DNA of 64,000 bases, taken from positions 186,001 to 250,000 of the forward strand of contig CAUYUJ010000048.1 of assembly GCA_963575745.1 (NCBI GenBank), read 5' to 3'. The stretch comes from Prorocentrum cordatum. Its lineage: Eukaryota. Made by a program: the position numbers and the translations under genes. Of the stretch, positions 13,971 through 58,483 are shown piece after piece. The first letter of the stretch is position 1, and each line of letters opens with the position of its first letter. A model generated the notes under the pieces. The model was given only the letters and a program-made list of their open reading frames with translations. It was not told where the DNA came from and did not search any database.

Positions 13971-14689
13971 CTACCTTTTCTGGGCCCTTCCCTGGGGAGG
14001 GCGTTTCTTCCCAGATCGTCCGCTGCCCGAGGCGGGCTTTGGAAGTCCCATGGGAAGCCGAACGCGTGCTGCGTAGCAGAGCTGCCTGATCATTTTTTAA
14101 GGACCCCATGGAGGTCCAAAATCAACCAAACACGTCCAAACACGGCCTCGGACCCCGATGCGATCCCCAACCCGCGAGAGATGAGGGGCGACCGCCAGAA
14201 TCCATGCGTATCCACCTCCTCGTAGTCATGCCCGTGGTGTTCGAGGACCTCTCGAGGAATGGTGGATATGGATATCTGGCCCGCCAAGCGCGGGAACGTA
14301 TCCACATCCGCCGCTACCCAGGGACTGGGCTCTAGGAGTCCAGCAGTTGTGCCTGTGGATGATTCCTGGCGGCGCGATCATTGAGGGATGATGCTTGGCG
14401 GCGAGAGGTGTATTCGCATCGGGGGCCAAGAGACGGGGGTCAAAGCAAACGGGGGTCAGCCAGAAAGCCGGATCTTGCAGGACCCTTCCGAGCCAGGGGT
14501 GCACTGACCCGGGCTGGCGTGCAGGATCTTGCAGGATCCTGCGGGATCTTGCGAACTGACCCGTGTTTGGATTGACCCAGGTCAGTAGGTCCCCGAACAC
14601 ACACCGACCCCAGCCAGGCTTATCCTTTCGGTGGCAAATCATGGGAGCCTGGTGTACCCCTTTTAATTCCGTCGGTAGCGCCGATTAGC

Positions 14690-15179: not shown

Positions 15180-15868
15180 GAGAAGGAGGAGGAGGAGGAA
15201 GGAGAGGCAGAGGAGGAGGAGGAAGAGGAGGAGGAGGAGGAGGAGGAGGAGGAGGAGGAGGAGGAGGAGGAGACGAGGAGACGAGACGAGGAGACGAGGA
15301 GACGAGACGAGGAGACGAGGGGACGAGGAGGAGGAGGAGGAGGAGGAGGAGGAGAGGAGGAGGAGGAGGAGGAGGAGGAGGAGGAGGAGGAGGAGGAGGA
15401 GGAGGAGGAGGAGGAGGAGGAGGAGGAGGAGGGGGAGGAGGGAGGAGGGAGGAGGAGGAGGAGGAGGAGGAGGAGGGAGGAGGAGGAGGAGGAGGAGGAG
15501 GAGGAGGAGGAGGAGGAGGAGGAGGAGGAGGAGGAGGAGGAGGAGGAGGAGGAGGAGGAGGAGGAGGAGGAGGAGGAGGAGGAGGAGGAGGAGGAGGAGG
15601 AGGAGGAGGAGGAGGAGGAGGAGGGAGGAGGAGGAGGAGGAGGAGGAGGAGGAGGAGGAGGAGGAGGAGGAGGAGGCATAGGAGGAAGAGGAGGAGGAGG
15701 GCAGAGGAAGGGGCAGAGGAGGCAGGGGAGGAGGAGGAGGAGGAGGAGGAGGAGGAGGAGGAGGAGGAGGAGGAGGAGGAGGAGGAGGAGGGGGGAGACG
15801 AGGAGGAGGAGGAGGAGGAGGAGGAGGAGGAGGAGGAGGAGGAGGAGGAGGAGGAGGAGGAGAAGGAG
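15180..15868. repeat. Long (GAG)n microsatellite at the 5' junction of element B
   Basis: About 690 bp of GAG repeats. Confidence 0.95.
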
Positions 15869-21160: not shown

Positions 21161-21471
21161 ACAAAGTAGAGGAGAAGGAGGAAGAGGAGGAGGAGGAGAA
21201 GGAGGAGGAGGAACAGGAGGAAGAGGAGGAGGAGGAGGAGGAGGAGGAGGAGGAGGAGGAGGAGGAGGAGGAGGAGGCAGAGGCAGAAGAGGAGGAGGAG
21301 GAGGAGGAGGAGGAGGAGGAGGAGAAGGAGGACCGTCGTGACGGTGGCCGTTTCCCCCCCCCCCCCCCTTGAGCGCTCGGGGGCAGGTCTCCAGCAGGGG
21401 CGCGGCCCGCCGGGGCGATGGCGGCGGCGGCGGCGCTCGGGTCGGCGCGCCCCCTGCGCGCGGACGACCGT

Positions 21472-27775: not shown

Positions 27776-27797
27776 TCCGTGGACATTTTGGCTCAAG
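27776..27797 (+). other. Relict DinoSL (20/22)
   Basis: TCCGTGGACATTTTGGCTCAAG; not followed by GT. Confidence 0.85.
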
Positions 27798-36601: not shown

Positions 36602-36905
36602 TCGGCCACGCGCAGAGGGGGGGAGGAGGAGGAGGAGGAGGAGGAGGAGGAGGATGAGGAGGAGGAGGAGGAGGAGGAGGAGGAGGAGGGAGGAGGAGCA
36701 GGAGGAGGAGGAGGAAGGAGGAGGAGGAGGAGGAGGAGGAGGAGGAGGAGGAGGAGGAGGGGGAGGGGGGAAGGCTTCTTGGAAGCGCCCCTGCTTCTTA
36801 GAAGGCGCGGGCCTGGTCAGTAGATGTGCGGCCCGTGCCTTCTCGGAAGCAACCTCCTTCCAAGAGGCCCTCCCCCCTCCCCAAACCCCCCCTCTGCGCG
36901 CCGCC
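36602..36905. mobile_element. Palindromic MITE of the 47277-47446 family carrying an internal (GAG)n expansion
   Basis: tcggccacgcgcagagg start; aaggcttctt..ctgcttcttagaaggcgcgggcc / ggcccgtgccttct..cctctgcg arms. Confidence 0.75.
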
Positions 36906-41915: not shown

Positions 41916-42015
41916 NNNNNNNNNNNNNNNNNNNNNNNNNNNNNNNNNNNNNNNNNNNNNNNNNNNNNNNNNNNNNNNNNNNNNNNNNNNNNNNNNNNNN
42001 NNNNNNNNNNNNNNN
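41916..42015. other. Assembly gap (100 N)
   Basis: Run of N. Confidence 1.
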
Positions 42016-42849
42016 GGAGGGGGAGGAGGAGGAGGAGGAGGAGGAGGAGGAGGAGGAGGAGGAGGAGGAGGAGGAGGAGGCGGGGAGCGATCTGACCCCC
42101 GAGCCACCCGCCCCGTTCTTCGTTTTCCTTCGGCCGCGTCCTCTTCTCGTCCTCCTGCGTCAGGGTGGCACATGTTTCCTTTTCCTCGTCCGCGCCTCGT
42201 GTGCCCTCGCGATTCTGTTTTCGGCGTCGACTAGCGTCGGTCAGCGTCTGGGAGTCGATGAGATCGTGCCGATTCAGCGTCGCCTTCGTCGACCTAGCGT
42301 CGATAAGCGTGAGCCGACAAGATGGTATGGGAGGCTCCCATGAGTGTCACCGAAGGGTCGCAGGCGATTCTTCTCCCCCGAATCCCCCGGGCTCCGACCG
42401 CAAAGTCTGGCCGCTCAGGAGGAGGGGGGGGACCCTGGGATGCACCCCACGGGGGTCGTTCGGGCGCACCCCCCCCATCGAGGATGGGCGCCCCCCCCCC
42501 CCGCTCTCGCGTATCCCAGTGGTGGGCCCCCCAATGTTTCGCCCATTCGAAAGCACCACGAAGCCTGGGACAGGGGGTCGACGCATCATTTGTTGGGCGG
42601 TGGGGCGGGGGGGCGACGGTTCGAAAGCACCACGAGGCCTGGGATAGGGGGTCGACACATCCTTCGTTGGGGGGGGAGGGGGCGGGGGGGCGACGAGCAG
42701 GAGGCGGAAGTGGAGGGCGACAGGACGGGGGCCCCGCGAACCAGGGGGGCCGAGTTGGGATCCCCCCTGGGGGGCTTCGGAGGTGCCCGAGAGGTGCGCC
42801 GTTCTCTTCGCCCATGTCCAGCTCGCCCTCGTTTCCCTCCTCCCCTTGC

Positions 42850-43300
42850 TGTCGTCGTCGTCCTCCTCCTCGTCCTCCTCCTCGTCCTCGTCCTCCTCCT
42901 CCTCCTCCTCCTTCTTCTCCTCCTCCTGCTCCTCCTCGTCGTCCTCCTCCTCCTCCCCTTCCTCCTCATCCTCCGTATCCTCATCCTCCTCTCAACCTCA
43001 TCCTCCGTCTCTCTCTCCTCCTCCTCGACCTCCTCCTCCTCTTCCTCCTCCTTCTCCTTCCCTCTTCCTCTCTCCTCTAACTTCCTCTCTCTCATCTCTC
43101 CTCTCCTCCTCCTCCTCCCTCCCCTCCTCCTCCTCCTCCTCCTCCTCCTCCTCCTCCTCCTCCTCCTCCTCCTCCTCCTCCTCCTCCCTCCCCTCCTCCC
43201 CGTCCCTCCCGTTCTCCTCCTCTCGTCCGTCTCCGTCGTCCTCTCCGTCCTCCAGCTCCTTGTCCTCCTGGCCCATTCTGCCCTCCGTCCTCCTCCTCCC
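42850..43300. repeat. (CCT)n microsatellite
   Basis: Seen directly in the sequence. Confidence 0.92.
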
Positions 43301-45087
43301 CCCCCGCCCCTCCTGCGCCTGCTCCTCCCTGCGGCCCCGCCGGCGCGCGCCCGCCCGAGAGCACGGGCGTCAGCACAGCGCCGCGGTGGCCCCCATTGCC
43401 GTGCGCCCCCGGGGCCGCGCGCAGGAGCTGCTCGCGGAGCCCGCCGCGCCCGAGGAGCAGGGCCAGGGCTCCCGGCGGCGGAGGGCGGAGGCGGCCTGCC
43501 TCTCTCCGCCCAGTTCGCGCGGGCGGGGGGGTGTCGGGGGCAGCGAGCGGGGGGGATGACAGGCACAGGTTCCCAGACCCCCTCGAGTCATGGCAGAAAT
43601 CACGGCGGGAGGCTTTCCATGTCTTCGGCCTCTGGGGGCCCCTGCGGGGCCTCGGGACCGTCAAAAAACTATTCAGGATGAAGAGCTGGTCCCGGGGCAG
43701 GGGTCCAGACCTCTGGGGGCCGACGTCATGAAAAAATCATGACGTCGGGGGTTTGGGTTCTTCGGTCGTGTTCGTCCGTTCGCGGAGGCTTCCCGGCCCT
43801 GGGGATGTGTTCCAGCAGCTGCGCCTCGTCGAGGGCGTCCTTGGGGTGCTGGAATCGTTCCAAACGGACTCCGGCGTGCCGAGTTATGATCCGACACAGG
43901 GGGGGGAATGCAACGGCCCCCAATCGCCCATCGATCGCCGATAGGGGCCCGATAGCCCAAATCTGCCCAGGAAGGTGCGGACTCACTGTCAGAGGCCAAT
44001 CGCCGATCTACCAGCGATGTATCGCCGATTCAAGGTCGAGTTTTCCCCCCTATCCCTATCCCTATCCCATCCTATGGTCGCCCCTCATGGGGAGGGGGAG
44101 AGGGAGGTCCCGAGCGATGGAGGAGCGCCCCCAGCGATCCGACGCCCCGAACACATGAGAGGGCGGCTGGTTTGGGGCTGTTTTTGGGGAGGCCGTCGCC
44201 AGGTCTCGGGACGGTCAAAGAATGACTGAGGACGGCAAAGCGGTCATGGGAAAGTGATCCAGACCTCTGGGGTCCACGTACCGAAAACGTAGGAGCGGCT
44301 GGATGTTTGGATCTGGTGACCAAGCGCCTGTCAGCGAGAAGAAACGAGAACTGCACAGCCGAAGCAAGCACAGTTGGACAGCAAGGCACGGTTCAAGCGC
44401 ACCGCGACGCCCCCTGCAGCAGCGAGATTGCCAGGGGATGCCGTGTGGCGCGCGCTCACACGGGCACAAGTGGTCGGCCTGTGCGCGGATGGAGTGCACG
44501 CGAGGCCAGAGGAATTTGCGCTTCCCCGCTCGCACGCGTGCCGGGGTCTGAAGAGTGCCCCTTGCAATCCCTGCCGAGCTTGGGACTGCGACCGCCTGCA
44601 GCGCTGTCTGCACCGCAGGCGAGACATGTTGCCGCGGGCCCGAATCTTTCGGCCGAAGCCACGGTGGGCTTCAGCTTCCAGATCCCGACCTTCCGACCCG
44701 CCTCCCTCGAGCCCCCCCACGGGCGGCCTCATGTTTAATGGGAGGGGCGCGCTCTCGCCTCTTGCCTTCCGCCAGGTTCGCCGTCGAGGCTGGCTGCCAA
44801 CGCGGCCGGAGCTGCCTCGAGGGGTGGAGCGACGTCTCGACGGAGCATCGGACAAAACGGGTGGCCAATCCCTGTCTGAGATCATTGGCTCCCAACGCTC
44901 CAGAAGCATCGGCCGTTCTCGTAAACTTGGTGGCATCGCCTACGCCTGCGCTCGGACAAACGATCAAAGAAAAGAAGCTCGTGGGCGGCAGCCTCGATGG
45001 GCGGCACGGCTTTGCGAGGTTTTTTGCGAGTTGAGGCGTCTCACGCCTGAGTTTCGACAAATGGGAGAAATTGATTGCAGGCTGCGG

Positions 45088-45257
45088 TAACGATCAACGA
45101 TCAACAATCAACGGTAAAGATCAACGATCAACGATCAACGATACCATTAACTATCGTTATCGTTGATCATCATCGTTATCGTTGATCGTCATCGTTATTG
45201 TTGTCGTTATGGTTATCGTTGTGATCGGTGTCGTTGACCGTTGATCGTTATCGTTGC
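45088..45257. repeat. Fold-back heptamer microsatellite (AACGATC)n/(ATCGTT)n inserted in element C
   Basis: Repeat polarity flips at about 45150. Confidence 0.85.
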
Positions 45258-45297
45258 CGTCCAGGCAAAGATCTCCGAATCTTCCAGCCCCTTTGAG

Positions 45298-45492
45298 TCG
45301 GGTGGGGCGAAAGGGGGGGATTGGGAAAGGGGGGGTTACGAAATTTGCTGCATGCAGCTGGTTTCGGCCTCACCGAGGGGCCCATTCCTCGATACATAGC
45401 CGCCTCCGGCGCCGGGAGGCGCCGGGAAAATCAGCTACGTGAGCTGATTCTCAAACCCCCCCTTTGCTATCCCCCCCTTTCGCCCGACCCGA
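45298..45492. mobile_element. 195-bp MITE with 5-bp TSD TTGAG, nested in element C
   Basis: ttgag|tcgggtggggcgaaaggggggga...tcccccccctttcgcccgacccga|ttgag. Confidence 0.92.
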
Positions 45493-45680
45493 TTGAGACC
45501 CGCAGCGTGGGCATTCTGCAACACTCTGGAAGCCGCGTGGCCCATGAACTCCAGCGGTGGCAGAGTCGTCGGCCCGCTCGCTGCCTGGGAGACCCTATCT
45601 CTATATTAATTGCACGTGTCCCTGCCGAGCGGGTCCTCAAACCTGCGATGCGCAGGGACCGATGCAACAGCAGGTGGGTA

Positions 45681-45860
45681 CTCCAGATTTCATAATAAAA
45701 GGGAGGGGGTCTGGACCCCCCAAGACAAGCCGTTTCAGACCCCCCCTCGTGGGAGAACCCTCCAAAACATCGTCCCCAGACCCCCCCAGGCCCTCCAAGA
45801 TACCCTGGAAGAGACCCCCCCCGAAATGAGACACCCCTCCCTTTATTACGAAATCTGGAG
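45681..45860. mobile_element. 180-bp MITE with TA TSD (Tc1/mariner-type signature), nested in element C
   Basis: ta|ctccagatttcataataaaagggagggg...cccctccctttattacgaaatctggag|ta. Confidence 0.88.
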
Positions 45861-47276
45861 TATTCTTTGCCACACCGCTGCGTGCTTTGACCGAGTCAGA
45901 CTTGCCGAGGCAGGCCACAGTTGCCCATCTCTCACGTGGTCAAAATTGTCAGAAGCTCCGCGGACGGGCCGAGCTGCATGCTCTATATAGCCTTGATTGC
46001 TGTGCAGTGCTCGGACCTGGGTAACTACTGTCTGAAACTGGGCAGGCAAACGCCCCATAGGACGCACGCACAGGGATGCCCGATGAGTCCAGCTTGGCCA
46101 CTGACCACCCGCATCTGGTGAAGCCCGAAGAAGCCTGGGCCCAACCCGTCCGCAAGAACCCTCCGCCCCGAGACGTTCTGCCGGCCCCCTCCCCCCCAAC
46201 ACACCCCGAGACAGGGTAGGAGTCCTTAGCAGACTCTTGGGAAAGACGGCATTGGCGGGAGCCCGTAGCTGAGGCGAAGAATATGTCCCTGCTGTCTGGC
46301 GGATCATACCTCGGCACCAAGGCATCCCTGTGCTCTAGCACATCACCTGGCGGTCCGCATCACCATCGAGCACCGATTCTGGAAGCAAAGCGGCGAACTG
46401 CTGAGCTGGATAGAGTGGAGCCTGACGGGTGCTTCGATTCCAGCCGCCCGCACGGCCTTGAGGACCCTTCTTCAGCAAGCATCCTTAATGATCCCTAATG
46501 GCCAGAACCACTTGCCGCATAGCTCTCCCCCATCAGGTTTTACCTGCTGACGCAGAAGGTGCTTTAAACTTCGAGCCGACTGCCAAGTACGAATGCCTTG
46601 TTCTGGCTGGGACTTAACATCGCTCGAGTTCTCCCTGAGCAGGTCGACCTGCGTCCCGCGATCAATCACAAGCACAGTTGGGGGCAGCATCGACCAACAA
46701 ACAACGCAAAAGGGAAGCCCATTCAGTGGCGATAGTCCTCCTAACACTCGTCCAAGACGCACGGTGATATATTATGTTTGTGTTTGCTCCCCATGCTCAT
46801 GCTTTCAAACGCCGGCTCGGTTGCACTCTGGCGTCCCAGACACATGACGCACACCTGTTCGCTATGGCCAGAGTGGCGTCAAGTACAGGATGGAATCTGT
46901 CGTCTTTCTGAGTGGCTGAATATAACGTGAGGCTCGACTTAGGCTTAGCCCCACACATACCACCAGCGAATGTCTGCAACGCACAACTCGACGGGTCGTT
47001 GACCCCCGAGACGCCAGGGCCGCGTTCTGCCGCAGGGAGGAGCCCTGTTCTCCACACGGCCTTGGCAGCCTCCCCAGCCGAATGACTTTAACCCCACACC
47101 TTGCGCTTCCCAGACATGAGGCTCTGCGGTAAGCTCTCTCCCGGGCCTTGGGCGCGCTGCACCTCTGGATGCGTGCATCCTGTGGCCCGGGTCCCTCGTC
47201 GAACGCTCGGCGTGGAAACCGAGAGGTTCCAACATCCCACTGAACCTACTCCCGCCTTTGGTGGTGTTGGAAACAA

Positions 47277-47446
47277 TCGGCCACGCGCAGAGGTTGGCAG
47301 AAGGAGGGGGGGAGGCTTCTTAGACGGAGGCTGCTTCTTAGGAGGCGAGGGTCTTATCTAGAAGTGTAAGGCCCGCGCCTTCTAAGAAGCAGCCACCTTC
47401 TAAGAAGCCTTCCCCCCTCCCCCTACCCCCCTCTGCGAGTGGCCTA
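47277..47446. mobile_element. 170-bp palindromic MITE with 5-bp TSD AACAA, nested in element C
   Basis: aacaa|tcggccacgcgcagagg...cctctgcgagtggccta|aacaa; internal arms ggcttcttaga/tctaagaagcc. Confidence 0.9.
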
Positions 47447-50400
47447 AACAAGCCCGCCCTTTTTTGCCCTGAACTATCAGACCCAGCGGCCGAACGTCTC
47501 GACAAAAGCGCGCAACGCTGTGGCCAGCTGGTTCGCTTCCTCCTCCCCGAACTCCCCGCTCCACCGCGAACCAGCCCAGTGGAAGCTGGCGTCAGTTCGA
47601 GCTCGCGGGGTCACACAGACGGAAGAAGCGCATGCGTTTGCAACAACTTGCGTCTCGGCAGGACCTCGAGCAATGCTGTGGCCCTAGAACACCCCGCCAA
47701 ACATCCCTTGTGGACGGGACGGGAGGAGAGCTCGAACGCAACGAGCTTGGAGGTAGGTCTGAATGGTCATCCACGCAAGCCGCCTCAGGAAACCAGTGTT
47801 TCGAGCTGCCTCTGACAGCGACTGCAGAATAACAGTCTAGCAGCATTGCTTCAGCGGGCGGCTCCAGCGGGAAATAACCGTTTTGAAGTGTTATTTTGGG
47901 CATACCGGTCCATCCGTGATGTAAGGCCGCACCTTGGACTGATGTCGGATATTTTGGACACCCTTCCCCTGACAGCGCAAGCATCTCCACAAGTTTTTAC
48001 ACGAGCTAAGGTTTCACGTGTTGGGTCGCCTATTGCAGGGTGGCCCTCGCGTGACTCCGGGTTTGTTTGGTGCATGTTGCCAGCATCTCGTCACACGTGG
48101 TTCGATTATCGTATGTTTCTATAGTTTGTGCGAATGCCCGCCAGATTGCCTGACTGCATGCCAGTCGTTCGTGCATTCTTGATTTTTCAAAAAAAACAAG
48201 AAATAGTCTCGCAGCATGCCATCACGTCGACGAACACCGTCAAGCTATCTCCCCCTACCGCATGCGCGATTTTCGAATCTAAGTTCGAAGCAAACGCAGT
48301 CCGACGAGGACCTTCCAGCCCGCGCCCCCAAATGTCTCCAAGATCGTGAGCGACTTCCCTCTCGGCCGCAACTCGCCTTTGGAGCCTCCCCCAACTCTTG
48401 AGGAGAATGTGAGTTTGAGCAGTCAATCTACTTCTCCCGCTGGGTTTGGTGAGGCGGACTGGCTGGGTCAGCATCCCACTCGATGGCCAGATTCGACGCC
48501 CTTCGCATTCTTGTGAACAGCCGTGCTATTGCGCTGAGACCCCCGTCACCGTCGAACAGGCGGCCCCTGGGTTCAAACCAAAACGGACCCCATCCCGATG
48601 AGCATGGGAGCTGCAGCGCTGCTCGATTGGCATCTGCAGCTGAGCTCTCCGGGAGCGGGCCCCAGCCATGAAGATGGCTCGACAGGGCCGGCACAGGCGC
48701 ACCACGAGGGGGCCAACTCTTGTCCCGCACCCTGCTTTCGCCATCCGCAGGCCCGTGCGGCTGCGCCTCTGGTTGGCAGCGATCACCTCCTGTTGCGCTC
48801 CGCATGTAGTGCCGAACATGTTCTGTGGAAATGCCGCTTCGGTTGATTTTCGAGGTTCGAATCTGCAACAGGTGAATCACAAGACGGACCCACTTTCGAG
48901 GTGCAAGAGCCCATATGGATTTCACCCTGAGCCCTCCACCCTAAGACAATGATTAGTACGATGCCCGTGAGCAAAACTGGTCCCAGTCTGGAAAGAGTCG
49001 GCGGCCCGATTTCTTCAGGCCGGCGCGCACTTCTGCGACTGCTTCTCCGGGATGGACCTGGGCTCGAGCCTCGATGTCCTCAAGCGCTGCCTCGATGCCT
49101 GGTCCGACCATGCAGTCAGGTCCTGCTTCAAAGATGCTAGACGTCCAAGGCTCCAGCTCCCCTCGGACAGACCTTTCAGATTGGATGCTGGACAAGAAAC
49201 GTCCCAACTCCAAGGTGTGTGTTTCGTGGGCTCCCGGAGGCCGGCCTGGTCGGCCCGTCCTTCCTGCTGCCCAGGAGTCCCCGTGAAGCTCGCGATGGCC
49301 TCCGTGGACCAGATGGGATGCCTCGCCCGTCTGTCAGCCATGCGCGGGCCCTCTCAGCCTTGGGCACGGGGCTTCCACCGGAGCCCGCTGAGGGCGCACT
49401 CGAGTGGCACTGCAGCAGCTCTGAAGGCTGCGCCTTTCCTACCTGCCAGATCGTGCCGACCTAACAATTCCAATTCAGGCTGCGAGACTACTGCCTCCCA
49501 AGCAACGTGCAATGTCAGATTGTCGATGGCCCTCACTATCGACCAACTCTTTAAAACGCATGCCACCCCTGGGCAACGTGGGCATCCTGGATCTGGCGTC
49601 TTCGGAGCCGGCCTGGGCCCTTGCAACGCCCTGGCAAAAAAGGAATGTCATTGCCAGGCAATGGCAACAAATTGGCACGCGAGAAGAAGTGGCGCTGTCA
49701 TCGCTGGCCCACAGGCGGTGCAGACAAGGCGCCAGGCTCACCGACATTATGAGAAATGCTCCTGTCGGGAAGGCTCTGCTTCCAACTGGGCGTTGACGGG
49801 GCTCTGAGGGTGCCCCGCTAGTCCGTGGAACCATCTCAAATCACCAAGCTCCGCTGGCCCCATGCCAAAACCGCCAGCTGCAGTTCCATCGTAGCCAGAG
49901 TGATTCAATCGTTCGAGGAAGCTGCAAACATCGCGCATGAGCTTACGTGGCGTTGTTCTCAGACCATCCCTCGTTCACAAAGAGATAGACGGAAACTAAC
50001 ACGAAATTTCCGGGCATTCCACAGTGGTTCTGGGCTGGCAGTGTTCTTGAATTGGCAAGGCTTCGGGAGTTCATGAATGTTGGTGCCTTTGTCACCATCA
50101 CATTCCCCTGTGCCAGCACAGCAAGACCTGACTGCGTGCCGCTAGCACTGCCTGACAAGGTGGCAGGAGCCCAAACTCCCTGCTATCACATGGCTTGTCT
50201 CTGATGCTGAGCGTTACCCAGCTTGTCTGATGCAATGTGATACGCCTGAATCGCAAATACTGCGTTGCGGCTACTGTTGCTGCCGAAATCCAACATCTGT
50301 TTTTCATCCGTAGTGACGTGGTCGGTCCGCTACCATGACTCTTGGCCCGGCCTGTCCGCCCATCACCACCCAATTACGTAGCATCCCGCAGTTTCGGATA

Positions 50401-50522
50401 AGAGTGAGGGGACGGCGGGGACGTAGGCAGTCTGCGAGGCTCTGAAGAAGCCCGTCGCAGGCGCAGAGTTTTTCAAGCTATACAACGAGCCCGCCGCAGG
50501 CGCCGATTTTTTGTTAAAACAA

Positions 50523-50962
50523 TGTGGGTCGGTCGCGGATTGGGTCGCAGGTGGGTCGCGGGTGGGTGGCCGGTGGGTCGCGGCCGGGTCGTGGGCCAGG
50601 TCGCAGGTGGGTCGCGGGTGGGTCGCGGGTGGGTCGCGGGTGCGTCGCGGGTGTGTCGCGAGCGGGTCGCGGGGTGGGTCGCGAGGTGGGTCGCGTGTGG
50701 GTCGCGGGGTGGGTCGCGGGTGGGTTGCGGGATGGGTCGCGGGGTGGACGACGCAACAAAACAAGCAGAATCCTCGAATACGAAGCTCGCATTTTGTATA
50801 CTGAATGGGTCGCGGGGTGGGTCGCGTGTGGGTCGCGGGGTGGGTCGCGGGTGGGTCGCGGGGTGGGTCGCGGGTTGGGTGGATCGCGGGGTGGGTCGCG
50901 GGTGGGGTCGCGGGTGGGTCGCGGGGCGGGTCGCGGGGTGGGTCGCGGGTGCGTCGCGGGGG
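50523..50962. repeat. (GGGTCGCGGGT)n 11-12-bp minisatellite within the ~2.1-kb insert in element C
   Basis: Two arrays, each ending in gacg.c..aa.caaacaa. Confidence 0.9.
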
Positions 50963-52899
50963 GGAAGACGACACCAAACAAACAACAGCGCAACAAGCAG
51001 AGGCCTCACCACGGATCCCCACTTCAGCCGCGCACCCGGGGCCAATGACTGACCGTTCGGCCCCCTCACTCCGATGAATCGTTGGTGCCGCCGTGCACGT
51101 TGGCTGACTGGCCCCCGTGGCCCGCCGCCGCTCTGCTCCCCGAGGCTGCACTCCGTGCGTCGGCGGCTCGAGCTCGAGGCTGGATGGGGGGGGGGCTGGG
51201 CATCGGCCGCCCGCGCGCCCGCGGCCAGTCTGCCCCTCCCGCTGCCACGGCCTGGCCGCCCGCCGCTCTGGAAATGCTCCCGCGGCGCGCGAGGCCCCTG
51301 CGCCTCGGAGCCGGACGGGTCGTGCACTGCGCGAAGCTCGTGGCTGCATCCCGCCCGTCGCGAGCCGGAGGGCCAGCGCAGGCCCGGTCCTCGAGAACAG
51401 AAGGGCCGCTGAGCCTGACGATGCGATGGAGACGTGGCCTCCCTGAGGGCCCCGTCCCTTGCACCAGGGACGTCCAGTTCTGGGCGGTGTGGTCTGGTGC
51501 ATCTGCAGGAAAGAGGAGCCCTCATCCCTAGCCCTAATCAGGTCCTCCTCCTTGGCCCTCCTAACTCAGGTCCCTAATCAGGAGCCCTCATCCCTAATCA
51601 GGTCCTCCTCCTTGGCCCTCCTCCTCCTTGGCCCTCATCCCTAAAAGGTGCATGTTCTTGGCCATCCTAGCTCAGGTCCCCCTCCCAAGATGTTAAGGTG
51701 TCCTGCTCTGGTTGACCACCAGGGGCTCGGCCGCCCGCGCACTCGCAGCCTGCCGCCCACGCCTCTCGCCGCGGCGGCTTCGCGGCCGAGGCAGGAGTGC
51801 GGCGCGCCGCCCCGCCGCCAACCTGGCGCTGACCTGCGCGCCGCCGCGCTGGACGTGCTGCGCCGCTGGCTCGGCGCCTCCGCTGCCTGACCTTCGGGGG
51901 CGGCAGCTTCTCCACGGCGCGCGGCTGCCTTCGAAGAAGGACAAGCAAGACACGAACGCAAACCTCTGGCGCTCCGAGCGGATTTCTTGCCTTGGCGCGG
52001 GGCCCCCGAGGCGGCGCCTCCGGCGCCGCCCTCGGCACGCTCCGCGCGCCGGGGAGGGGGGGTCCGGCGCGGAGCCAAGAGCTCCGCGCGGATCTCCAAG
52101 AGTTCGTGCTCGTGTGTTTTTGTTGTGCCCCTCTGTGCATCCCGTCCGTCGCCGGCACGAGCAGGGAGGTTGGAGCGCGGGGCGGGGCCGCGGCCGCCGT
52201 GCGCCTCCGCGGCCCGTCGGCCGCCTCCTCCGCCGCGGCCCTCGGCCGAGCGGTCGGCGCCGCGGGCGGCCCCGCCGAGCTGGGCGCGGTCTGGGTCGCC
52301 CTGCGCCCAGACCGCGCCCGCCGCGGCACCCCGGCGCGGCGTGCCGGGCGCGGGCGGAGGCCAGGCCTGATGGGCAAATCTACCACCACCACCACCAGAA
52401 GTCGGAGGGGGAGGGGGTCCTCCTCCTCCTCCTCCTCCTCCTCCTCCTCTTCGTCCTCCTCCACCTCGTCCTCCACCCCGCTTCCCCCCTCCAACTTATG
52501 GTGGTGGTGATGATGGAAAACAGGCCCATCAAGGCCAGGCCACCATGCCGTGCACTGGCTGGGCTTTCTCCCGCTCCTCTGCTTTGCCGATCCGTCGGGC
52601 AGGTCCCTCTACGGGAGGGGTCTCCAAGAGGGGTCAGCAACCATAGTGTGAGGACGATGTCTGCTTGCTGCCCCTCTTGACTATTTTTGATTGCTTTTTG
52701 ATCATCTCTGCTTCCAAGGTCCGCCTGCAGGAAGACATGCCGACATGCCCGACCGAAGCTTGCCATCCCTCAACGCCCCTCTGCCAGCTGCCCAGCGCCG
52801 CCTTGGACCGTCAACCCCCGTCGGCCCCCGCGTCGCTCTTGATGCCTGCCCTGCCCAACAAACAAAAGTCGCGCCGGTCGTCCGCATCTCGCTCGTCGG

Positions 52900-53970
52900 C
52901 TTTTTTTGATTGATACGTCGACCCCTTCCTGGCACTGGTGCGCCTCCGCCTCCGCGCGGGTGACCCTCCAGAAGACTGCTGGCCTGGTGCTTTGGTTTGC
53001 GCACTCTCCTCCTCGACCTGATCTGCCGCCCTTTCTCTTGCCCTCAGGCGCCATGACCTCCGCCGAGACCGACTGGCCTCTTGTTTCTTTGGCTTGCGCA
53101 CGCTCCTCCCTGACCTGATGTGCCTTCTTCCTCGAACGCCACGGCCTCGGCCAAGACCTGCCCGCGCTCGGTGCCGAGCGTGTCGTCGTCGCCGCGACCC
53201 TTGAGGATGCTGCCCATCTTGTCGACCGAGATGCCCAGCGCTGAGACCACCTCTGTCGCCTCCACCTGTGACGCTGAACCTGGTGTTTTGGGGACAGCTG
53301 CAGCTAACTTAGTTTGCTCCTCTGCGATCGCTGATAGTCAAGATGCCCTTCTCGGCGTCCGTCGACAATGAGAGACTTTTGGTCGAGGATCGGCGCCTGT
53401 GCCCCCTCTGGCTCTTCCTGAGCCATGGCCAACAACTCCGCATTCTTGACTTTTTTTGCTGCAGCCGATGCGACTGGTATGCCAGCGAACGTAGAGGCGC
53501 AGGCACTGGCTCTGGCGGCTCCAACACGTTGCGCAACTTCTTGCTTGCAGTCTCCAACGCCTCCCTCTCTGACACGAAGCAGGATTCCTTGAAGTCCTTG
53601 ATCGCACCTACATGTGAATTGATCTCCTCGAGCCGAGCCTTGATCTGCGCGCTGCTGGCGTGCGGTAGCAACTCGCCTGCATCCACGTCCATGCCTTTGC
53701 CACCTGCCACCGTCGTTACGTTTTACCTGTCCCGACTGCTGCTGGGTGAGCATGGGTTATTTCTCGAGCTTCGCCATTTTGCCCATCCGCCACGGGGCGG
53801 CCTTCATGCCGCCAGGAGCATTATTGGCCGCAACTGGCTGTGATTTGGCACGCAGGTCCAACTATGACGAAGCTTTAGAGCCATTCCATATGTCTGGCAG
53901 CGGACCTTGTCCGCCCGGTTCCGCCGGGCTGCTTCCGAGGTTGTGTGAACACAACAGTTGTATTACCAAG
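52900..53970 (-). pseudogene. ORF1-like region of element C
   Basis: Degenerate finger W*YNCC..NRADKVRCQTYG, then MDVDAGE..IKARLEEINSHVGAIKDFKE..EREALETASKKLR (coiled-coil-like). Confidence 0.55.
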
Positions 53971-54343
53971 AGAGTGTTTTTGTTACCCTCTGGGCCATAA
54001 CGTGCTCCCCCTCATCAGTGCGCCCCCAGTGCTGCTGCAGTGCATCTGGCACCACAAATTGGGGGTGGCGGCGCTACGTTAGTTATCTCCCTCCCCCCCG
54101 TAACGCCCGCTATGGCCGCGAATGTTAAAATGCGCTCCACTTGACCGCCGCCACTCTACGCCTCTGGGCGTGCCGACTGAGCCTGTTGTTCGCATCCCCT
54201 GCCACCCTGAGCTTGGAGTTGACTTGGGAAGAAACGCGAGGCTCGCCCTCACCAGCGCGCGTCTCGATTGAGGTGGCCTTGGAATTTACCTACACTTGCC
54301 GCGGACTGGCGGTGTCCACTTGGCTCGCACGGGGAACATCGGT

Positions 54344-54365
54344 CTTGAGCCACAATGGCTATGGA
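54344..54365 (-). other. Relict DinoSL (20/22) at the 5' end of element C
   Basis: Plus strand CTTGAGCCACAATGGCTATGGA reads TCCATAGCCATTGTGGCTCAAG on minus. Upstream on that strand lies a C/T-rich tract (54366-54495). Confidence 0.88.
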
Positions 54366-54849
54366 CGAGGGGGAGAGACAGGAGGGAGAGGTGGGGCAGG
54401 AGAAGGGGGAGGGGGGGGATCTAGGCCTCCCAGGAGGGGGAGGAGGACAGGGAGGAGGATAGAGGAGGAGGAGGGGGAGGAGGAGGGGGAGGAGGACCAG
54501 TGTGAACCCAAGAGCCATCAACGGTGTTGGAATAAACCCTCCCACAAAGCTCCCTCTTCATAGGCCCAGAACAGTTCATGCCCACTGAGGGAATTGCCTC
54601 GTTGGAAGACAACCGTTTGAAGATCCGGAAGCATGCCAAAACATTGTTCTCGGGATTCCCACGCCACGAATCAACCTGACTGGTGCGTCTTGACAATCTT
54701 CAAGCGCGCCAAAAAGCCATTCTTGGGATTTCAACACCGGGAGTGAACGTAACTGTTGCACCCTCATAATCCTGAACCCTTCCAAAAGACCATGTCTGGT
54801 ACGCTGACCATGGGAATCCTTGAAGCCCTTCCGAATTCAAACAGCGAGT

Positions 54850-55040
54850 GTGCGCGACGCTAAGGCGAGAGCCACATGTTGAAAAGGAACCGCCCTCAAT
54901 CCGTCAAACTCTTGCAAGTTTCGAAGACGAATGCACGCGGCGCTAAGGCGAGAGCCACATGGTGGAAACGATTCGCCCTCAATCCGTGAAACTCTTGCAA
55001 ATGTCGAAAACGAATGTGCGCGGCGCTAAGGCGAGAGCTG
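54850..55040. repeat. ~84-bp tandem repeat (about 2.3 copies)
   Basis: cgcg(a/g)cgctaaggcgagagc at about 54853, 54936 and 55019. Confidence 0.8.
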
Positions 55041-55456
55041 CATTTTGAAAACGTCCCGCCCTCCAGCGGTGAAGCTTTTGTCACTGTTCAAGCTTCAGGG
55101 TCCTTAGTGGTGAGGACGTCTCAAGCCAAACGCCGGGGCCGCCCTAAGAACTATTCTCGGGGCGCGACAGGAAGAAGGTTTGTTTCTAGGGGAAGACACT
55201 GAGGAAGTGGAGGAGGAGGAGGAGAAGGAGGAGGAGGAGGAGGAGGAAGAGGGAGGGGAGGGGAGGAGGAGGAGGAGGAGGAGAAGGAGGAGGAGGAGGA
55301 GGAGGAGGAGGAGAGAGGAGGAGGAGGAGGAGGAGGAGGAGGAGGAGGATCAGGAGCAAGAGGAGGAGGGGGGGATGGAGGAGGAGGAGGGAGGAGGGAG
55401 GAGGGAGGAGGGAGGAGGAGGAGGAGGAGGAGGAGGAGGAGGAGGAGGAGGAGTAT

Positions 55457-55649
55457 CTAGGCCTCCCAGATGGCGTCCGACTAGATGGGGTCGGAGGATC
55501 GCGCCGCATTGCTGATGCATCGCCGAGGCGGGTCGACGTGGCAACCGAGTTTCTCCGCGCCGACGTTGCCGATGCATCGCCGATGCATTGACGATGCGGC
55601 GCGACTCGTTGGCCCCATCTAGTCCGAGCCTATCTGGGAGGTCTGCTAG
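55457..55649. mobile_element. Palindromic MITE-like element inside a (GGA)n tract
   Basis: ctaggcctcccagat..gactagatgggg pairs with ccccatctagtc..atctgggaggtctgctag. Confidence 0.75.
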
Positions 55650-58483
55650 TGGAGGAGGACGAGGAGGAGGAGGAGGAGGAGGAGGAGGAGGAGGAGGAGG
55701 AAAGGGGGGGAGACTGGAGAGAGGAGGGAGGAGGGAGGAGGAGGGGGGGAGGAGGAGGGGGGGCAGCCGATGGGGGATGGGGCCTCTCTTCGCGGTTCTC
55801 TTTTTTGAGAGGGGGGAGGGGGCTGTTGCATCGATGATTCGATTGCTGAGGTTCTCCGTTCGAAACAAATTGTGTTTTTTTGTATGCATTGTTTTGCCGA
55901 TCGGCGTCGGCCCTCGCACCCACTCTCCCCCCTCCATGGAGTAGATCTTGCCCGTTTTGGGCGCCTGTTTCGAGCAGGTGGGGTCCCTCCTCCATCGGCC
56001 GCACTGCTGCAAACAGTCGCACTGAGCAGAGGTCCGGAGCCAGACCCCCCCCCCTCCCCCCCTTCCGCCCAATGTCGAAACGCCGAGTAAAAAGAAACGC
56101 TCACGTGCCAAGAGCGAGCACCCCAAGTGGGTCTTCGCCGCTCGCTCATTTCCCAACGAAGGTCGGAGTGCGTGCGTCCTTCCGCGCCCTGGCCCGTCAG
56201 AGTCGGGGCTCCCCTCCGTGGCATGCCGAGGAGGAGCAGCAGGAGGAGGACGCAGCAGGAGGACCGGGGGTATAAGAGGAGGCCCGGGGCTCCGAGGGAG
56301 GCGGAGTGCGGAGGCGCCTCGCCTCCGCCTCCCTCGGGGGCACTGCCGGGGGGGGCGGCCGGCTCGAGGATCTGGCTTTGGGGCTCTCGTGGGCTCCCTC
56401 CGTGCTGGTCGGAGGTGGGCATCCCTTCTGCCCCGACGCGTCGATGAAGGAATTGGCCGTTGTCGGTTCTCGAGAGGGCGTCGCGGCCGTCATCTTTGCG
56501 GGTCCAGGTCCGTCTATTTCGGCCCTGGGCCGTTTTCACTAAGGGGAGGTTCAGAGGTTTGTCCACCGCCGTGCTGGGGAGTGTGGGGGGGGCGGCTTCT
56601 GGCTGCATCGAGGGCCCTGGGCGGCAGGCCTGCGCCACGTCGACGTGGCGGCGGTCCCTGGCGCGGGCATTCCAGCGTGGAGCGCCACCAGTGGCCCAGC
56701 ATCGGGCGACGTCGAACGATCCGCACGGATTCGGAAGCCGCGGCACCTTCGCGCATGCTTGCGGTCGCTCCAGGTGTGGCGATGCATGCACGCGGTGCGG
56801 TGTACAACCAGCGCGCAAGCTGCCCCGACACGACACCGTCGCACTCGGGCGGGGTCAGGACGAGGGTAAAGTTCGTTCCAGAGCGTTCCGGACCGCTCTC
56901 AGAGCGTTCCGGAGCGCTCCAAGACGGCCGCGGCGCCCGAGAGATCACATCTTCCAGTTCCGCCGGATCTTATAGATTCTCGAGTTGCACTCCCACGATG
57001 CCGTCCTCTTCCTGGTCTCGTCTCTATGGGAACGGAACACGACACAGACATAAGAACTCGGAGGTCCGCACGGATTCCTCGGATCGGCGCTGGAGCTCCC
57101 TCCCTGCACGCGGAGCGCGCCAGGGGCGGCGCTGGAGGCGCAGCCCGGGCGGTCCAGCGCCGATCCGAGAGATCCGCGCAGACCTCCGAGTTGTTATGTT
57201 TATGTCACTGTGAAGTCTTAGTTTTCTATTTTTTTTTAGTATTTGTTGTTTTATTCCTATTTTTTCAAAAAACTGTGAAGTCTTAGTTTTAGTTACTGTT
57301 CATGCTACTTGTCACTTTTTCTCTCACTCTTTGTGCCACTGCTTAGGTTCTTAGTTTCAGGGAGCCTTGCGCTGCCGCCCGCGAGGGCGTGCCCCGGAGG
57401 GCGAGGCCCCGGAGAGGGGCCTCGCCCGGGCTCTATGGGGGCCTCTGCGCGGGTGCGGGGGCCCAGCTGGAAGGGGCCTCTCCTTTCCTGGCTCCGGGGG
57501 GGGGGATGCCCAGCGGCTTCCGTGGCACGGAGGGCCTGGCTCCAGGGGAGCGTCAGCTCGAGTCGGGCGTGTCCCCCTGCAGGAGGAGTCTCCAAGTACC
57601 GGGGGCGACGTTTTGGTTTGTCGTTTTGGTTTGTCTGCATGTGTCCCATGATTCTTTGGCGTTTTTGGAGTCCGTTCTAGTTCTCTTCCGGAGTCCGCCT
57701 GTAGGAGGGAGGAGGGAGGAGGGGGAGGAGGGAGGAGGGGGGAGGGAGGAGGGAGGAGGAGGAGGAGGAGGAGGAGGAGGAGGAGGAGGAGGAGAGGAGG
57801 AGGAGAGGAGGAGGAGGAGGAGGGAGGAGGAGGAGGAGGAGGAGGAGGGGAGGAGGAGGAGGAGGAGGAGGAGGAGAGGGAGGAGGAGGCGGAGGGGGAG
57901 GAGGGGGAGGAGGGGGGAGGAGGAGGAGGAGGAGGAGAGGGGGGAGGAGGCGGAGGGGGAGGAGGAGGAGGAGGAGGAGGAGGAGGAGGAGGAGGAGGAG
58001 GAGGAGGAGGAGGAGGAGGAGGAGGAGGAGGAGGAGGGGAGGAGGAGAGGGAGGAGGAGAGGGAGGAGGAGGAGGGGAACGTGAGCACGAAGGATGGCAG
58101 CACGGCTTCGCGGCGCGGCCCGCTCCCGTGCAGACTCGGCGCGCTCCGTTGCCGCATCGCTCGCCACCGGCACGCCGCACTTCGGGCGGCACCCTCTCCG
58201 AGGGCCGAGGGCCCGGCGCCCAGCAGTTGGAGGAGGTGGTTGGCGGCCGCGGCGTCTAGATCGCCAGGTCCAGATGGCTCGGCCTCGGCCAAGGCACATC
58301 TGGGCCGCCCAGGGAGCTCGGCGTCGGCCAAGGCGCACCGGGGCGCACGCGCCGCACGCGGCTCGTCGATGGAGGCGCCCACTCCACAGGTCCCCGGGAT
58401 CCCTGCGCCGTCTTTGTCGGGCGCCGGATGTCTGCGGTGCGTGCGCAGATGCAGCTGCCTCGCCCTCGTGGGGTGGCGGGGTT

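What the first reader, a model, noticed from the sequence alone, without database searches (positions are those of the whole stretch)
44280..54495. Second, divergent LINE shows the same pyrimidine tract + SL + ORF1 + ORF2 layout on the minus strand
Element C is older and shows no obvious nucleotide similarity to A. It still starts at a 20/22 DinoSL directly after a C/T-rich, CCT-like tract on its own strand. So both 5'-intact elements in the window follow the rule, which argues against chance. Each has a single SL rather than tandem relics, which fits replacement at the SL-terminal AG in each cycle (inference).
Basis: partly seen in the sequence, partly recalled or inferred. Interest (0 to 1): 0.8.

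Follow-up and report, generated by a model that had tools for sequence, protein, structure and literature searches.

The report
Decayed dinoflagellate LINE starting at a spliced leader
This stretch is an old, broken copy of a dinoflagellate jumping gene (a LINE) that begins with the leader sequence added to dinoflagellate messenger RNAs and sits against a simple purine/pyrimidine repeat, a pairing that recurs in other such elements.

Summary
A 20/22 DinoSL lies at 54365-54344 (minus strand), directly after a ~140-nt C/T-rich tract. Downstream on the same strand are colinear remnants of a LINE ORF2. Pfam misses them, but a profile built from relatives finds the APE N-terminus at 50317-49943 (iE 7.5e-11) and RT at 48519-48223. 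In addition, 34 of 152 family proteins hit the RT remnant.

Not verified: ORF1 (no homologues), the 3' half of ORF2, the 3' end, and the link between the SL and ORF2. The link has indirect support: an 11-bp candidate target-site duplication (54377-54367 / 44102-44092, false-positive rate ~5%), and an intact SL-headed LINE on a public contig (L137) with a similar 4.8 kb from SL to APE.

The "rule" is real but needs restating. Of 243 public SL sites with ≥40 nt of upstream sequence, only 2 abut a homopurine or homopyrimidine tract. One of them is the only site followed by a LINE, and its tract is (GA)n, which is purine-rich. The tract is therefore more likely microsatellite target DNA than a splice-acceptor signal. 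The absence of tandem SL relics carries little weight, because 253 of 263 background sites also lack an exact relic.

The parts
54366..54506 (-). C/T-rich (CCT-like) tract abutting the SL. It holds the 15-mer ATCTAGGCCTCCCAG (plus-strand reading, 54419-54433), which recurs at 55455-55469 beside another (GAG)n tract.
54367..54377 (-). 5' copy of the candidate 11-bp target-site duplication CTCTCCCCCTC. One G (54366) separates it from the SL.
   Evidence: It is the only 11-mer match in the window. The empirical false-positive rate is about 5-10%.
54344..54365 (-). DinoSL relic, 20 of 22 positions, single. It is followed by ACCGATG, not by a GT intron.
   Evidence: No Rfam family matched in 42000-56000 other than sub-threshold miRNA models.
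53693..54343 (-). Leader-like stretch between the SL and the first long ATG-headed frame. A short upstream ORF starts 4 nt after the SL.
   Evidence: sequence read directly
52770..53692 (-). Putative ORF1 remnant. ATG at 53692-53690, at least two frameshifts, a coiled-coil-like N-terminus followed by basic stretches. Identity not verified.
   Evidence: No Pfam hit, no homologue and no Atlas hit.
50318..52769 (-). GC-rich spacer with no homology to anything tested. It holds (GGA)19 at 52474-52418 and an 11-mer tandem array at 50526-50964. It is either secondary expansion and insertions, or a decayed extra coding part as in L137.
   Evidence: Many X1 contigs were laid at 50412-51042 and 52008-52037.
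49943..50317 (-). N-terminal part of the APE endonuclease of ORF2 (profile positions 6-126), with 3 in-frame stops.
   Evidence: iE 7.5e-11; P0002 residues 8-63
48100..48670 (-). Reverse transcriptase remnant, N-terminal motifs up to the first Asp motif (profile positions 578-676).
   Evidence: 34 of 152 family proteins, best E 7.7e-9; iE 3.2e-4
47279..47444 (.). Nested palindromic MITE-like repeat (78-nt arms, 85% complementary). A relative lies at 36756-36888.
   Evidence: I1; sub-threshold miRNA-model hits; 110 contigs at 47395
46704..47072 (-). Weak, colinear match to the post-RT part of ORF2 (profile positions 876-999).
   Evidence: iE 0.29, not significant alone; P0080, E 0.002
44103..46703 (-). 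Presumed 3' half of ORF2 plus the 3' UTR, decayed beyond recognition. A nested repeat lies at about 45104-45905, with tandem repeats at 45085-45255.
   Evidence: Inference from size: 544 remaining profile positions, plus an A-like 3' UTR, plus about 0.8 kb of nested repeat predict an end near 44050.
44092..44102 (-). 3' copy of the candidate target-site duplication, inside a short CT run (44113-44092).

Best explanation
Element C (about 54365 to about 44103, minus strand, roughly 10.3 kb) is an old, heavily decayed, originally full-length copy of an APE-type non-LTR retrotransposon from a large dinoflagellate LINE group.

Its RNA template was a mature, SL-trans-spliced mRNA. Reverse transcription to the 5' end therefore wrote the 22-nt DinoSL into the DNA as the element's first bases. 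The LINE identity and the SL are shown; the causal chain is inferred.

The element integrated at the edge of a pre-existing homopurine/homopyrimidine (CCT)n-like microsatellite. The C/T tract in front of the SL is therefore target DNA, not part of the element (inferred). LINEs of this group seem to prefer such R·Y microsatellites. The most likely reason is that target-primed reverse transcription is primed where the nicked target pairs with the CU-rich or simple-repeat 3' end of the LINE RNA, as in other microsatellite-targeting APE LINEs (inferred).

The copy later collected point mutations, frameshifts, tandem-repeat expansions and nested repeats.
For: LINE identity:
- A profile from 23 long relatives finds three colinear pieces on the minus strand: APE 50317-49943 (iE 7.5e-11), RT 48519-48223 (iE 3.2e-4) and a weak 47072-46704.
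- 34 of 152 family proteins hit 48670-48100 at E ≤0.05, best 7.7e-9.

SL:
- It matches 20 of 22 positions, where shuffles give 0 matches.

Link between SL and ORF2:
- Both lie on the same strand in the right order.
- The ORF2 match starts at profile position 6, so the copy is not truncated inside ORF2.
- The only 11-mer in the whole window that matches the last bases of the 5' flank lies at 44102-44092. ORF2 proportions predict the 3' end within about 55 nt of that point. The empirical false-positive rate is 0.05-0.10.
- L137 is an intact SL-headed LINE with 4.8 kb between SL and APE. C's 4.0 kb is therefore not odd.

Tract as target DNA:
- A has CCT tracts on both sides, at 6976-7090 and 13801-13982.
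- C's tract shares an exact 15-mer with the next tract 1 kb upstream, where shuffles give a mean of 0.18 matches with up to 2 mismatches.
- L137's tract is (GA)n, the opposite polarity.
- The candidate TSD lies inside the tract.

LINE-specific association:
- All 3 SL-headed LINEs (A, C, L137) abut an R·Y tract. Only 2 of 243 pooled public SL sites do, and one of those is L137.
- L137 is the only APE+RT LINE in 1.84 Mb of fetched loci.

Known precedent:
- APE LINEs that insert into (TC)n, (TTC)n, (AC)n, (ACAY)n and (TAA)n are described (PMC3812793, passage read).
Against: - No second copy of C was available, so the SL-headed 5' part (54343-52770) is not shown to belong to the ORF2-bearing element.
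- That 5' part has no homologue at all.
- 2.4 kb of unexplained GC-rich sequence lies between it and the APE.
- Pfam sees no domain anywhere in 44001-55000.
- The RT catalytic motif, RNase H and the C-terminus were not found.
- No 3' tail is visible at 44103.
- The TSD is CT-only low-complexity sequence with a 5-10% false-positive rate, and the narrow search zone was fixed after I had seen the match.
- B's 3' end carries (AATAG)n followed by (AGG)n, which is not a matching-polarity picture.
- If the same machinery made the SL-tagged retrogenes, they should also sit at R·Y tracts, and they do not. The tail-pairing explanation for this is inferred, not shown.
- The sample is only three LINE 5' junctions, and the background sites come from other organisms.
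Confidence: 0.65

Rival explanations
1. The pyrimidine tract plus the genomic SL form a working trans-splice acceptor. Read-through transcripts are trans-spliced at the AG that ends the SL relic, so each cycle swaps the old SL for a new one. The element never needs a promoter of its own and never accumulates relics.
For: - A and C both show a long pyrimidine tract, then a complete SL ending in AG, then the body with no relic.
- L137 also has a single SL.
- Every active LINE copy descends from many cycles. If the usual internal acceptor were used, which gives the relic CCATTTTGGCTCAAG (PMC12014239, passage read), relics should pile up, and they do not.
- L073 shows (CT)n abutting a perfect SL in another organism.
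Against: - L137, the only intact example, has a purine tract, (GA)n, on the sense strand in front of its SL. A pyrimidine tract is therefore not required.
- A has the same tract on its 3' side as well, which fits target DNA.
- A lack of relics is the common state: 253 of 263 SL sites lack an exact relic.
- No RNA data could be obtained.
- My search for a polypyrimidine signal at dinoflagellate trans-splice acceptors found no paper describing one (listing only).
Confidence: 0.15
2. The SL at 54365 heads an unrelated retroposed transcript (a retrogene or non-coding RNA copy). It merely lies about 4 kb upstream of a LINE copy that has lost, or never had, its own 5' end.
For: - The 5' part has no similarity to any LINE protein or to the 5' regions of A and B.
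- The spacer of 2.4 kb is full of repeats.
- With 3 LINEs in 64 kb, an SL falling within 4 kb upstream of one in the same orientation has roughly a 9% chance (my estimate).
- A third SL in the window, at 27777, heads no LINE.
Against: - The 5' part has no match to any cellular protein family either.
- No poly(A) remnant of 10 or more bases lies between 54343 and 50330 (read directly).
- The R·Y tract at the SL is a feature otherwise seen at LINE-heading SLs, not at ordinary SL sites.
- The candidate TSD brackets both the SL and ORF2.
- L137 shows that 4.8 kb from SL to APE is a natural layout.
Confidence: 0.15
3. The tract is made during integration. After reaching the 5' end of the RNA, the reverse transcriptase copies the first 2-3 bases of the SL (UCC or UC) again and again. 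This would leave a (TCC)n or (TC)n run in front of the SL, inside the insertion.
For: In A the (TCC)n run is in phase with the TCC that starts the SL. In L073 the (TC)n run is in phase with TCCGTAG.
Against: - L137's (GA)n cannot arise in this way.
- C's tract is irregular, holds a 15-mer shared with a neighbouring tract, and is not in phase with the SL.
- A has the same tract beyond its 3' end.
- The candidate TSD of C lies inside the tract.
Confidence: 0.04
4. The adjacency of tract and SL is chance in a genome crowded with CCT/AGG microsatellites.
For: 33 tracts cover 7.1% of the window.
Against: Exact abutment is needed. Only 12 and 21 tract ends exist per strand in 64 kb, which gives about 0.1-0.2% per site within 5 nt. 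It happens at both SL-headed LINEs here and at the one found elsewhere, but at only 1 other of 243 public SL sites.
Confidence: 0.01

Closest known systems
DinoSL-tagged retrocopies (retrogenes) of dinoflagellates
   Same: A DNA-encoded DinoSL at the 5' end shows that a mature trans-spliced mRNA was reverse transcribed and integrated. See PMC12014239, PMC7245778, PMC5585692 and PMC6050394 (passages read). Song et al. 2017 noted that the GO class 'RNA-dependent DNA replication' is enriched among SL-tagged genes. SL-tagged RT genes are therefore implicit in print.
   Different: Here the retrocopied mRNA belongs to the LINE itself. The SL abuts an R·Y microsatellite, which ordinary SL sites do not (2 of 243). 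My searches found no paper that describes SL-headed LINEs or this junction. Most listed papers were seen only as listings, and supplements were not read.
Microsatellite-targeting APE-type LINEs: Kibi (TC)n, Koshi (TTC)n, Mino (AC)n, Waldo (ACAY)n, Dong (TAA)n
   Same: APE-type LINEs that are found inserted in a simple repeat, with the repeat on both sides, as for A (PMC3812793, passage read).
   Different: Clade membership was not tested. The dinoflagellate elements are about 20% identical to one another and sit in different repeats, (CCT)n and (GA)n. The shared property may be R·Y character rather than one sequence. Only three junctions are known.
Trypanosomatid LINEs linked to the spliced leader: SLACS/CZAR/CRE inserted in SL RNA genes (recalled, no call), and L1Tc/ingi with the Pr77 promoter
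   Same: LINEs living in a genome where all mRNAs are SL-trans-spliced.
   Different: The SL-gene-specific elements interrupt SL RNA genes; they do not start with an SL. L1Tc makes unspliced transcripts from an internal promoter (PMC1874656 and PMC8190864, titles and abstracts in the listing). C's SL is followed by ACCGATG, not by an SL-RNA intron.
Elements A and B of the same window, and L137
   Same: All share ORF2 with APE followed by RT, recognised by one family profile. A and L137 start at an SL that abuts an R·Y tract.
   Different: Amino-acid identity is 16-23%. The distance from SL to APE is 1.25 kb in A, 4.0 kb in C and 4.8 kb in L137. No SL was found for B. L137's tract is purine-rich.

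Membership tests
APE-type non-LTR retrotransposon (LINE) | Apurinic/apyrimidinic-like endonuclease domain at the N-terminus of ORF2 | tested here: met
   The family profile matches 50317-49943 at positions 6-126 with iE 7.5e-11. Relatives carry Pfam Exo_endo_phos. Pfam itself finds nothing in C.
APE-type non-LTR retrotransposon (LINE) | Reverse transcriptase domain downstream of the endonuclease, colinear with it | tested here: met
   34 of 152 family proteins hit 48670-48100, best E 7.7e-9. The profile gives iE 3.2e-4. The spacing between APE and RT is 1798 nt, against 1716 nt expected from the profile. Only the N-terminal RT motifs are recognisable, and the YxDD box was not identified.
APE-type non-LTR retrotransposon (LINE) | Target-site duplication flanking the insertion | tested here: inconclusive
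   The 11-bp CTCTCCCCCTC occurs at 54377-54367 and 44102-44092 and is unique in the window. It is low-complexity sequence, with an empirical false-positive rate of 5-10%.
APE-type non-LTR retrotransposon (LINE) | 3' tail (poly(A) or simple repeat) | tested here: not met
   No A-run or repeat tail is visible at 44280 or 44103. Only a 22-nt CT run follows the candidate end. A tail could have decayed.
APE-type non-LTR retrotransposon (LINE) | ORF1 upstream of ORF2 | tested here: inconclusive
   A frameshifted ATG-headed frame runs from 53692. It has no homologue or domain. L137's ORF1 has a RanBP2-type zinc finger, which was not found in C.
APE-type non-LTR retrotransposon (LINE) | No long terminal repeats | tested here: met
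   The repeat finder on 43500-55500 gives only microsatellite, tandem and palindromic families, with no terminal direct repeats.
DinoSL-tagged retrocopy | Near-complete 22-nt DinoSL encoded in genomic DNA at the 5' end of the copied unit, not part of an SL RNA gene | tested here: met
   20 of 22 positions match at 54365-54344. The next bases are ACCGATG rather than a GT donor. No SL-RNA or other relevant Rfam match was found in 42000-56000.
DinoSL-tagged retrocopy | The SL is the true 5' boundary of the insertion | tested here: inconclusive
   The candidate TSD ends 1 nt before the SL. No empty site or second copy was available.
Microsatellite-targeting LINEs | The same microsatellite on both sides of the element | tested here: inconclusive
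   A meets this, with tracts at 6976-7090 and 13801-13982. C has a 140-nt tract on the 5' side but only a 22-nt CT run at the candidate 3' end. For L137 the 3' end is not on the contig.
Microsatellite-targeting LINEs | Many independent copies all inserted in that repeat | not testable with these tools
   No genome is held. Only 3 SL-headed LINE junctions were seen.
Microsatellite-targeting LINEs | Phylogenetic placement in the known targeting clades (R1, Tx1 and others) | not tested
   No tree with reference clades was built.

The most novel reading that the evidence does not exclude
Dinoflagellate LINEs as a group may be promoter-less elements whose 5' end is defined by spliced-leader trans-splicing. 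Under this reading, full-length copies always begin with a genomic SL. They land in homopurine/homopyrimidine microsatellites. They are re-expressed from read-through transcripts by exact replacement of the genomic SL at its terminal AG, so lineages about 20% identical in protein all keep one SL and no relics. This would make the SL a heritable, self-renewing 5' cap of a transposon family, and would make R·Y microsatellites the landing pads that shape these giant genomes.
Probability: 0.15. Interest if true: 0.8.

Novelty: new variant of a known kind. Interest (0 to 1): 0.5.

Why it matters
Dinoflagellate genomes are huge and rich in repeats and retrocopies, yet the machinery behind retroposition is still debated. 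PMC6050394 favours LTR elements, and PMC5585692 leaves the question open.

Three points follow from this work:
- SL-headed LINE copies would show directly that LINE mRNAs are trans-spliced and copied full length.
- The recurrent junction with R·Y microsatellites gives a testable integration rule for these LINEs.
- If ordinary SL-tagged retrogenes do not share that junction, as the 2-of-243 count suggests, then either they are made by another route or target choice depends on the 3' end of the RNA. Either answer bears on how these genomes grew.

Element C by itself is a dead copy of no functional weight.

Tried and rejected
- **Pfam on region C.** I scanned 44 minus-strand ORFs of at least 80 aa and all six stop=X frames of 44001-55000. 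There were no hits, so Pfam alone would have wrongly dismissed the LINE.
- **Comparisons within the window.** All-against-all blastp of ORFs and tblastx of A and B against C gave only low complexity plus one small shared repeat.
- **Whole genome.** None is held.
- **Earlier findings.** Nothing was returned.
- **The search for homologous proteins.** The search with P0002 gave only one further relative. The search with C's ORF1 gave none. The protein Atlas gave no usable hit.
- **Sequencing runs.** One DNA run with a small share (0.06) was listed, and no RNA holder was listed. Laying it gave short contigs only. No piece spans the junction between SL and tract or bridges ORF1 to ORF2. The LINE body has almost no cover. 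Depth is one figure per contig, so I use it only to say that some stretches attract many contigs.
- **Flank comparisons between A and C.** Upstream, downstream, 3' UTR and 5' UTR scores were all within shuffle range. A shared 13-mer, ATGAGGGGCGACC, is chance-level.
- **The idea that C's upstream repeat is the 3' end of another LINE.** No profile hit supports it.
- **5' regions of A, B, C and L137.** Compared with one another and with 152 family proteins, they show no credible homology. Weak colinear hits of P0010 to C's ORF1 (E about 1) were rejected as low complexity.
- **Degenerate SL in front of B.** None was found. Real-window scores of 12 or more occur only at the 3 known SLs, while a shuffled window gave 9.
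- **L137's middle region.** It has no Pfam hit.
- **No tree was built.** C's usable RT piece is only about 95 residues.
- **Literature.** Searches for SL-headed LINEs and for a polypyrimidine signal at dinoflagellate acceptors found none. The library lacks many subscription papers, and supplements were not opened.


Full report
**The observation**

On the minus strand the sequence reads a long C/T-rich, CCT-like tract (about 54506-54366). It is followed by TCCATAGCCATTGTGGCTCAAG (54365-54344) and then ACCGATG.... The 22-mer matches the DinoSL at 20 of 22 positions. The window has three SL-like sites with up to 3 mismatches: 7083-7103 on the plus strand (perfect), 27777-27797 on the plus strand, and this one. 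Dinucleotide shuffles give 0.00. A looser alignment scan finds no others. No relic follows the SL. Rfam finds no SL-RNA gene or other relevant family in 42000-56000. The SL and the tract are therefore real.

**Is there a LINE behind it?**

Pfam says no. None of 44 minus-strand ORFs and none of the six stop=X frames of 44001-55000 gave a hit. Element A itself gives only a sub-threshold RVT_1 hit, E 4.4e-4.

I therefore collected relatives of A's RT:
- P0001-P0003, which carry RVT_1, RNase H and Exo_endo_phos as precomputed domains.
- 150 representatives out of 1721 library hits.

tblastn of 152 family proteins against 44000-55000 gave 40 HSPs at E ≤0.05. Of these, 36 HSPs from 34 proteins fall on 48670-48100 on the minus strand, with a best E of 7.7e-9.

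A profile of 23 long members (1543 positions) was run over the six frames of the window:

| Element | Coordinates | Profile positions | iE |
|---|---|---|---|
| A | 8350-13545 (+) | 3-1531 | several pieces |
| B | 15861-20669 (+) | 34-1529 | several pieces |
| C, APE | 50317-49943 (-) | 6-126 | 7.5e-11 |
| C, RT | 48519-48223 (-) | 578-676 | 3.2e-4 |
| C, post-RT | 47072-46704 (-) | 876-999 | 0.29 |

The three C pieces are colinear. APE to RT spans 1798 nt, against 1716 nt expected. The extra roughly 550 nt before the third piece matches a nested palindromic repeat at 47279-47444.

C is as far from A and B as they are from each other:

| Pair | APE identity | RT identity |
|---|---|---|
| A-B | 30/146 | 61/275 |
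| A-C | 9/56 | 21/95 |
| B-C | 15/86 | 21/90 |

C is much more decayed than A, with 3 stops in 125 APE codons. Beyond profile position 999 nothing is recognisable.

**The 5' part and its link to ORF2**

An ATG at 53692 opens a frame with a coiled-coil-like start. It needs at least two frameshifts to continue to about 52770. It has no Pfam hit, no homologue, no Atlas neighbour, and no similarity to the 5' regions of A, B or L137 or to any of 152 family proteins. 'ORF1' is thus a positional guess.

Between it and the APE lie 2.4 kb of GC-rich sequence with (GGA)19 and an 11-mer tandem array. The distance from SL to APE is 4.0 kb, against 1.25 kb in A.

No other copy of C could be obtained:
- No genome is held.
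- The one listed run holds a small share. When laid, it gives short contigs that bridge nothing useful.

Indirect support for one insertion:
- Same strand, right order, and an ORF2 match that starts at its N-terminus.
- No poly(A) remnant of 10 or more bases between SL and APE.
- The last bases of the 5' flank, CTCTCCCCCTC at 54377-54367, recur once in the whole window, at 44102-44092 on the same strand.
- From the profile there are 544 positions left after 46704. Adding an A-like 225-nt 3' UTR and about 0.8 kb of nested repeat at 45104-45905 puts the expected 3' end near 44050.
- Control flanks of similar CT complexity give such a match in 5% of cases for an 800-nt zone and in 5-10% for a 2.5-kb zone. 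This is suggestive only.
- A single G between the duplication and the SL could be a copied cap. That idea rests on what I recall of mammalian L1 and is not tested.

**An independent example**

I scanned three public collections for the exact SL not followed by G. Pooled, they give 263 unique SL sites, of which 243 have ≥40 nt of upstream sequence.
- Only two have a 40-mer that is ≥90% pyrimidine or purine abutting the SL. These are L073 ((CT)n, with only 19 nt known downstream) and L137 ((GA)n).
- In the first batch, 0 of 137 sites had a profile hit downstream.
- In the second batch, 1 of 142 sites had one, with 116 sites offering ≥3 kb downstream. That one site is L137.
- A six-frame scan of all 258 loci (1.84 Mb) finds no other APE+RT LINE.

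L137 lies on a contig filed under a bacterial MAG. It looks intact:
- The order is (GA)n, SL, a 406-aa ORF with a RanBP2-type zinc finger (E 1.6e-7), then an open frame running to the locus end.
- That frame holds Exo_endo_phos (5.1e-9) and RVT_1 (4.5e-11). The APE starts 4.8 kb after the SL.
- Its RT is 20-23% identical to those of A, B and C.

All three SL-headed LINEs known to me (A, C, L137) therefore abut an R·Y microsatellite, whereas ordinary SL sites almost never do. A long distance from SL to APE is also a natural layout.

**What the tract is**

The window holds 33 purine/pyrimidine tracts covering 7.1% of its bases. Exact abutment by chance is roughly 0.1-0.2% per site.

Three observations make the tract look like target DNA:
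- A has CCT tracts of the same polarity on both sides, at 6976-7090 and 13801-13982, about 225 nt after the ORF2 stop.
- C's tract contains ATCTAGGCCTCCCAG, which recurs exactly at 55455-55469 at the edge of the next (GAG)n tract. Shuffles give a mean of 0.18 matches with up to 2 mismatches.
- L137's tract has the opposite polarity.

This fits the known behaviour of APE LINEs that insert into microsatellites (PMC3812793, passage read).

Why LINE copies but not ordinary SL-tagged retrocopies should sit there is not shown. I suggest that target choice follows pairing between the nicked target and the CU-rich or simple-repeat 3' end of the LINE RNA, whereas polyadenylated mRNAs would prime elsewhere. 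Alternatively, retrogenes may arise by another route. Many background SL sites may also be DNA-level duplicates rather than primary junctions.

B does not fit neatly. Its 3' end is (AATAG)n followed by (AGG)n, and no SL was found for it.

A single SL is seen in A, C and L137. However, 253 of 263 background sites also lack an exact relic, so the observation has little statistical force.

The logical point stands. LINE lineages pass through many cycles. Relics such as CCATTTTGGCTCAAG arise when the internal AG is used (PMC12014239 and PMC7245778, passages read). Something must prevent their build-up. That could be use of the terminal AG, or transcription that starts at the genomic SL. No RNA data were available to decide.

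**Literature**

My searches and the passages I read show that SL relics are used to mark retrogenes and that LINEs are named as possible drivers. Song et al. 2017 found 'RNA-dependent DNA replication' enriched among SL-tagged genes. I found no description of LINE copies that begin with the SL or of the microsatellite junction. Subscription papers and supplements were not covered.

**Verdict**

The finding is real as an observation and mostly right as an annotation. C is a second, deeply divergent, decayed LINE that very probably starts at an SL relic.

The general rule is better stated as follows: SL-headed LINEs of dinoflagellates abut homopurine/homopyrimidine microsatellites. It rests on three junctions and needs a genome-wide census. 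The splice-acceptor reading of the tract is possible but is weakened by L137.

Noticed in passing
window 27777-27797 (+): A third DinoSL relic (2 mismatches). It is preceded by A/C-rich sequence, not by an R·Y tract, and has no LINE profile hit or Pfam hit downstream. It is probably an ordinary retrocopy.
   Followed up: partly
window 15861-20669 (+), tail 20990-21338: LINE B has a near full-span ORF2 (profile positions 34-1529). About 700 nt of (AGG)n lie just upstream of the APE. The 3' end carries about 170 nt of (AATAG)n-like repeat and then (AGG)n. No SL was found.
   Followed up: partly
window 47279-47444 and 36756-36888: A palindromic MITE-like repeat (78-nt arms, 85% complementary) is nested in C's ORF2, with a relative near B. 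It draws sub-threshold hits to plant miRNA precursor models, and many contigs of run X1 lie on it.
   Followed up: partly
window 54815-55080: An 83-bp tandem repeat (about 2.6-3 copies) lies just upstream of C's tract. More than 100 contigs of run X1 lie on 54544-54905 at 80-95% likeness, so C sits beside a high-copy satellite-like family.
   Followed up: no
window 50526-50964: A tandem array of an 11-mer, GGGTGGGTCGC (about 38 copies, 72% matches), sits between C's putative ORF1 and the APE.
   Followed up: no
window 6070-6203 and 14419-14553: A 135-nt stretch upstream of A recurs at 75.6% identity downstream of A. A may therefore lie inside a larger repeated unit. A small minus-strand APE-like fragment lies at about 14265-14436.
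   Followed up: no
window 7240-7380 (+): By eye, A's 5' region encodes a Cys-rich W-C-x-C...N-W...C-x-C-x2-C stretch, split by a frameshift. It recalls the RanBP2-type zinc finger found in L137's ORF1. It was not tested.
   Followed up: no
L137 1-8138 (contig filed as a Pseudomonadota MAG): An apparently intact SL-headed dinoflagellate-type LINE sits in a bacterial MAG, so that contig is eukaryotic contamination. Between ORF1 and the APE lies an orphan 694-aa open frame (1672-3753) of normal-looking composition.
   Followed up: partly
L141-L258 (IMG/VR 'GVMAG' bins): Contigs up to 267 kb that are binned as giant-virus MAGs carry many exact DinoSL copies, up to 6 per 16 kb. This suggests dinoflagellate DNA in those bins.
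   Followed up: no
L073 2020-2135: About 90 nt of (CT)n run in phase into a perfect SL at the end of a 2.1-kb metagenome contig. What the SL heads is unknown.
   Followed up: partly
window 41916-42015: An assembly gap of 100 N is flanked by (AGG)n at 42012-42092.
   Followed up: no
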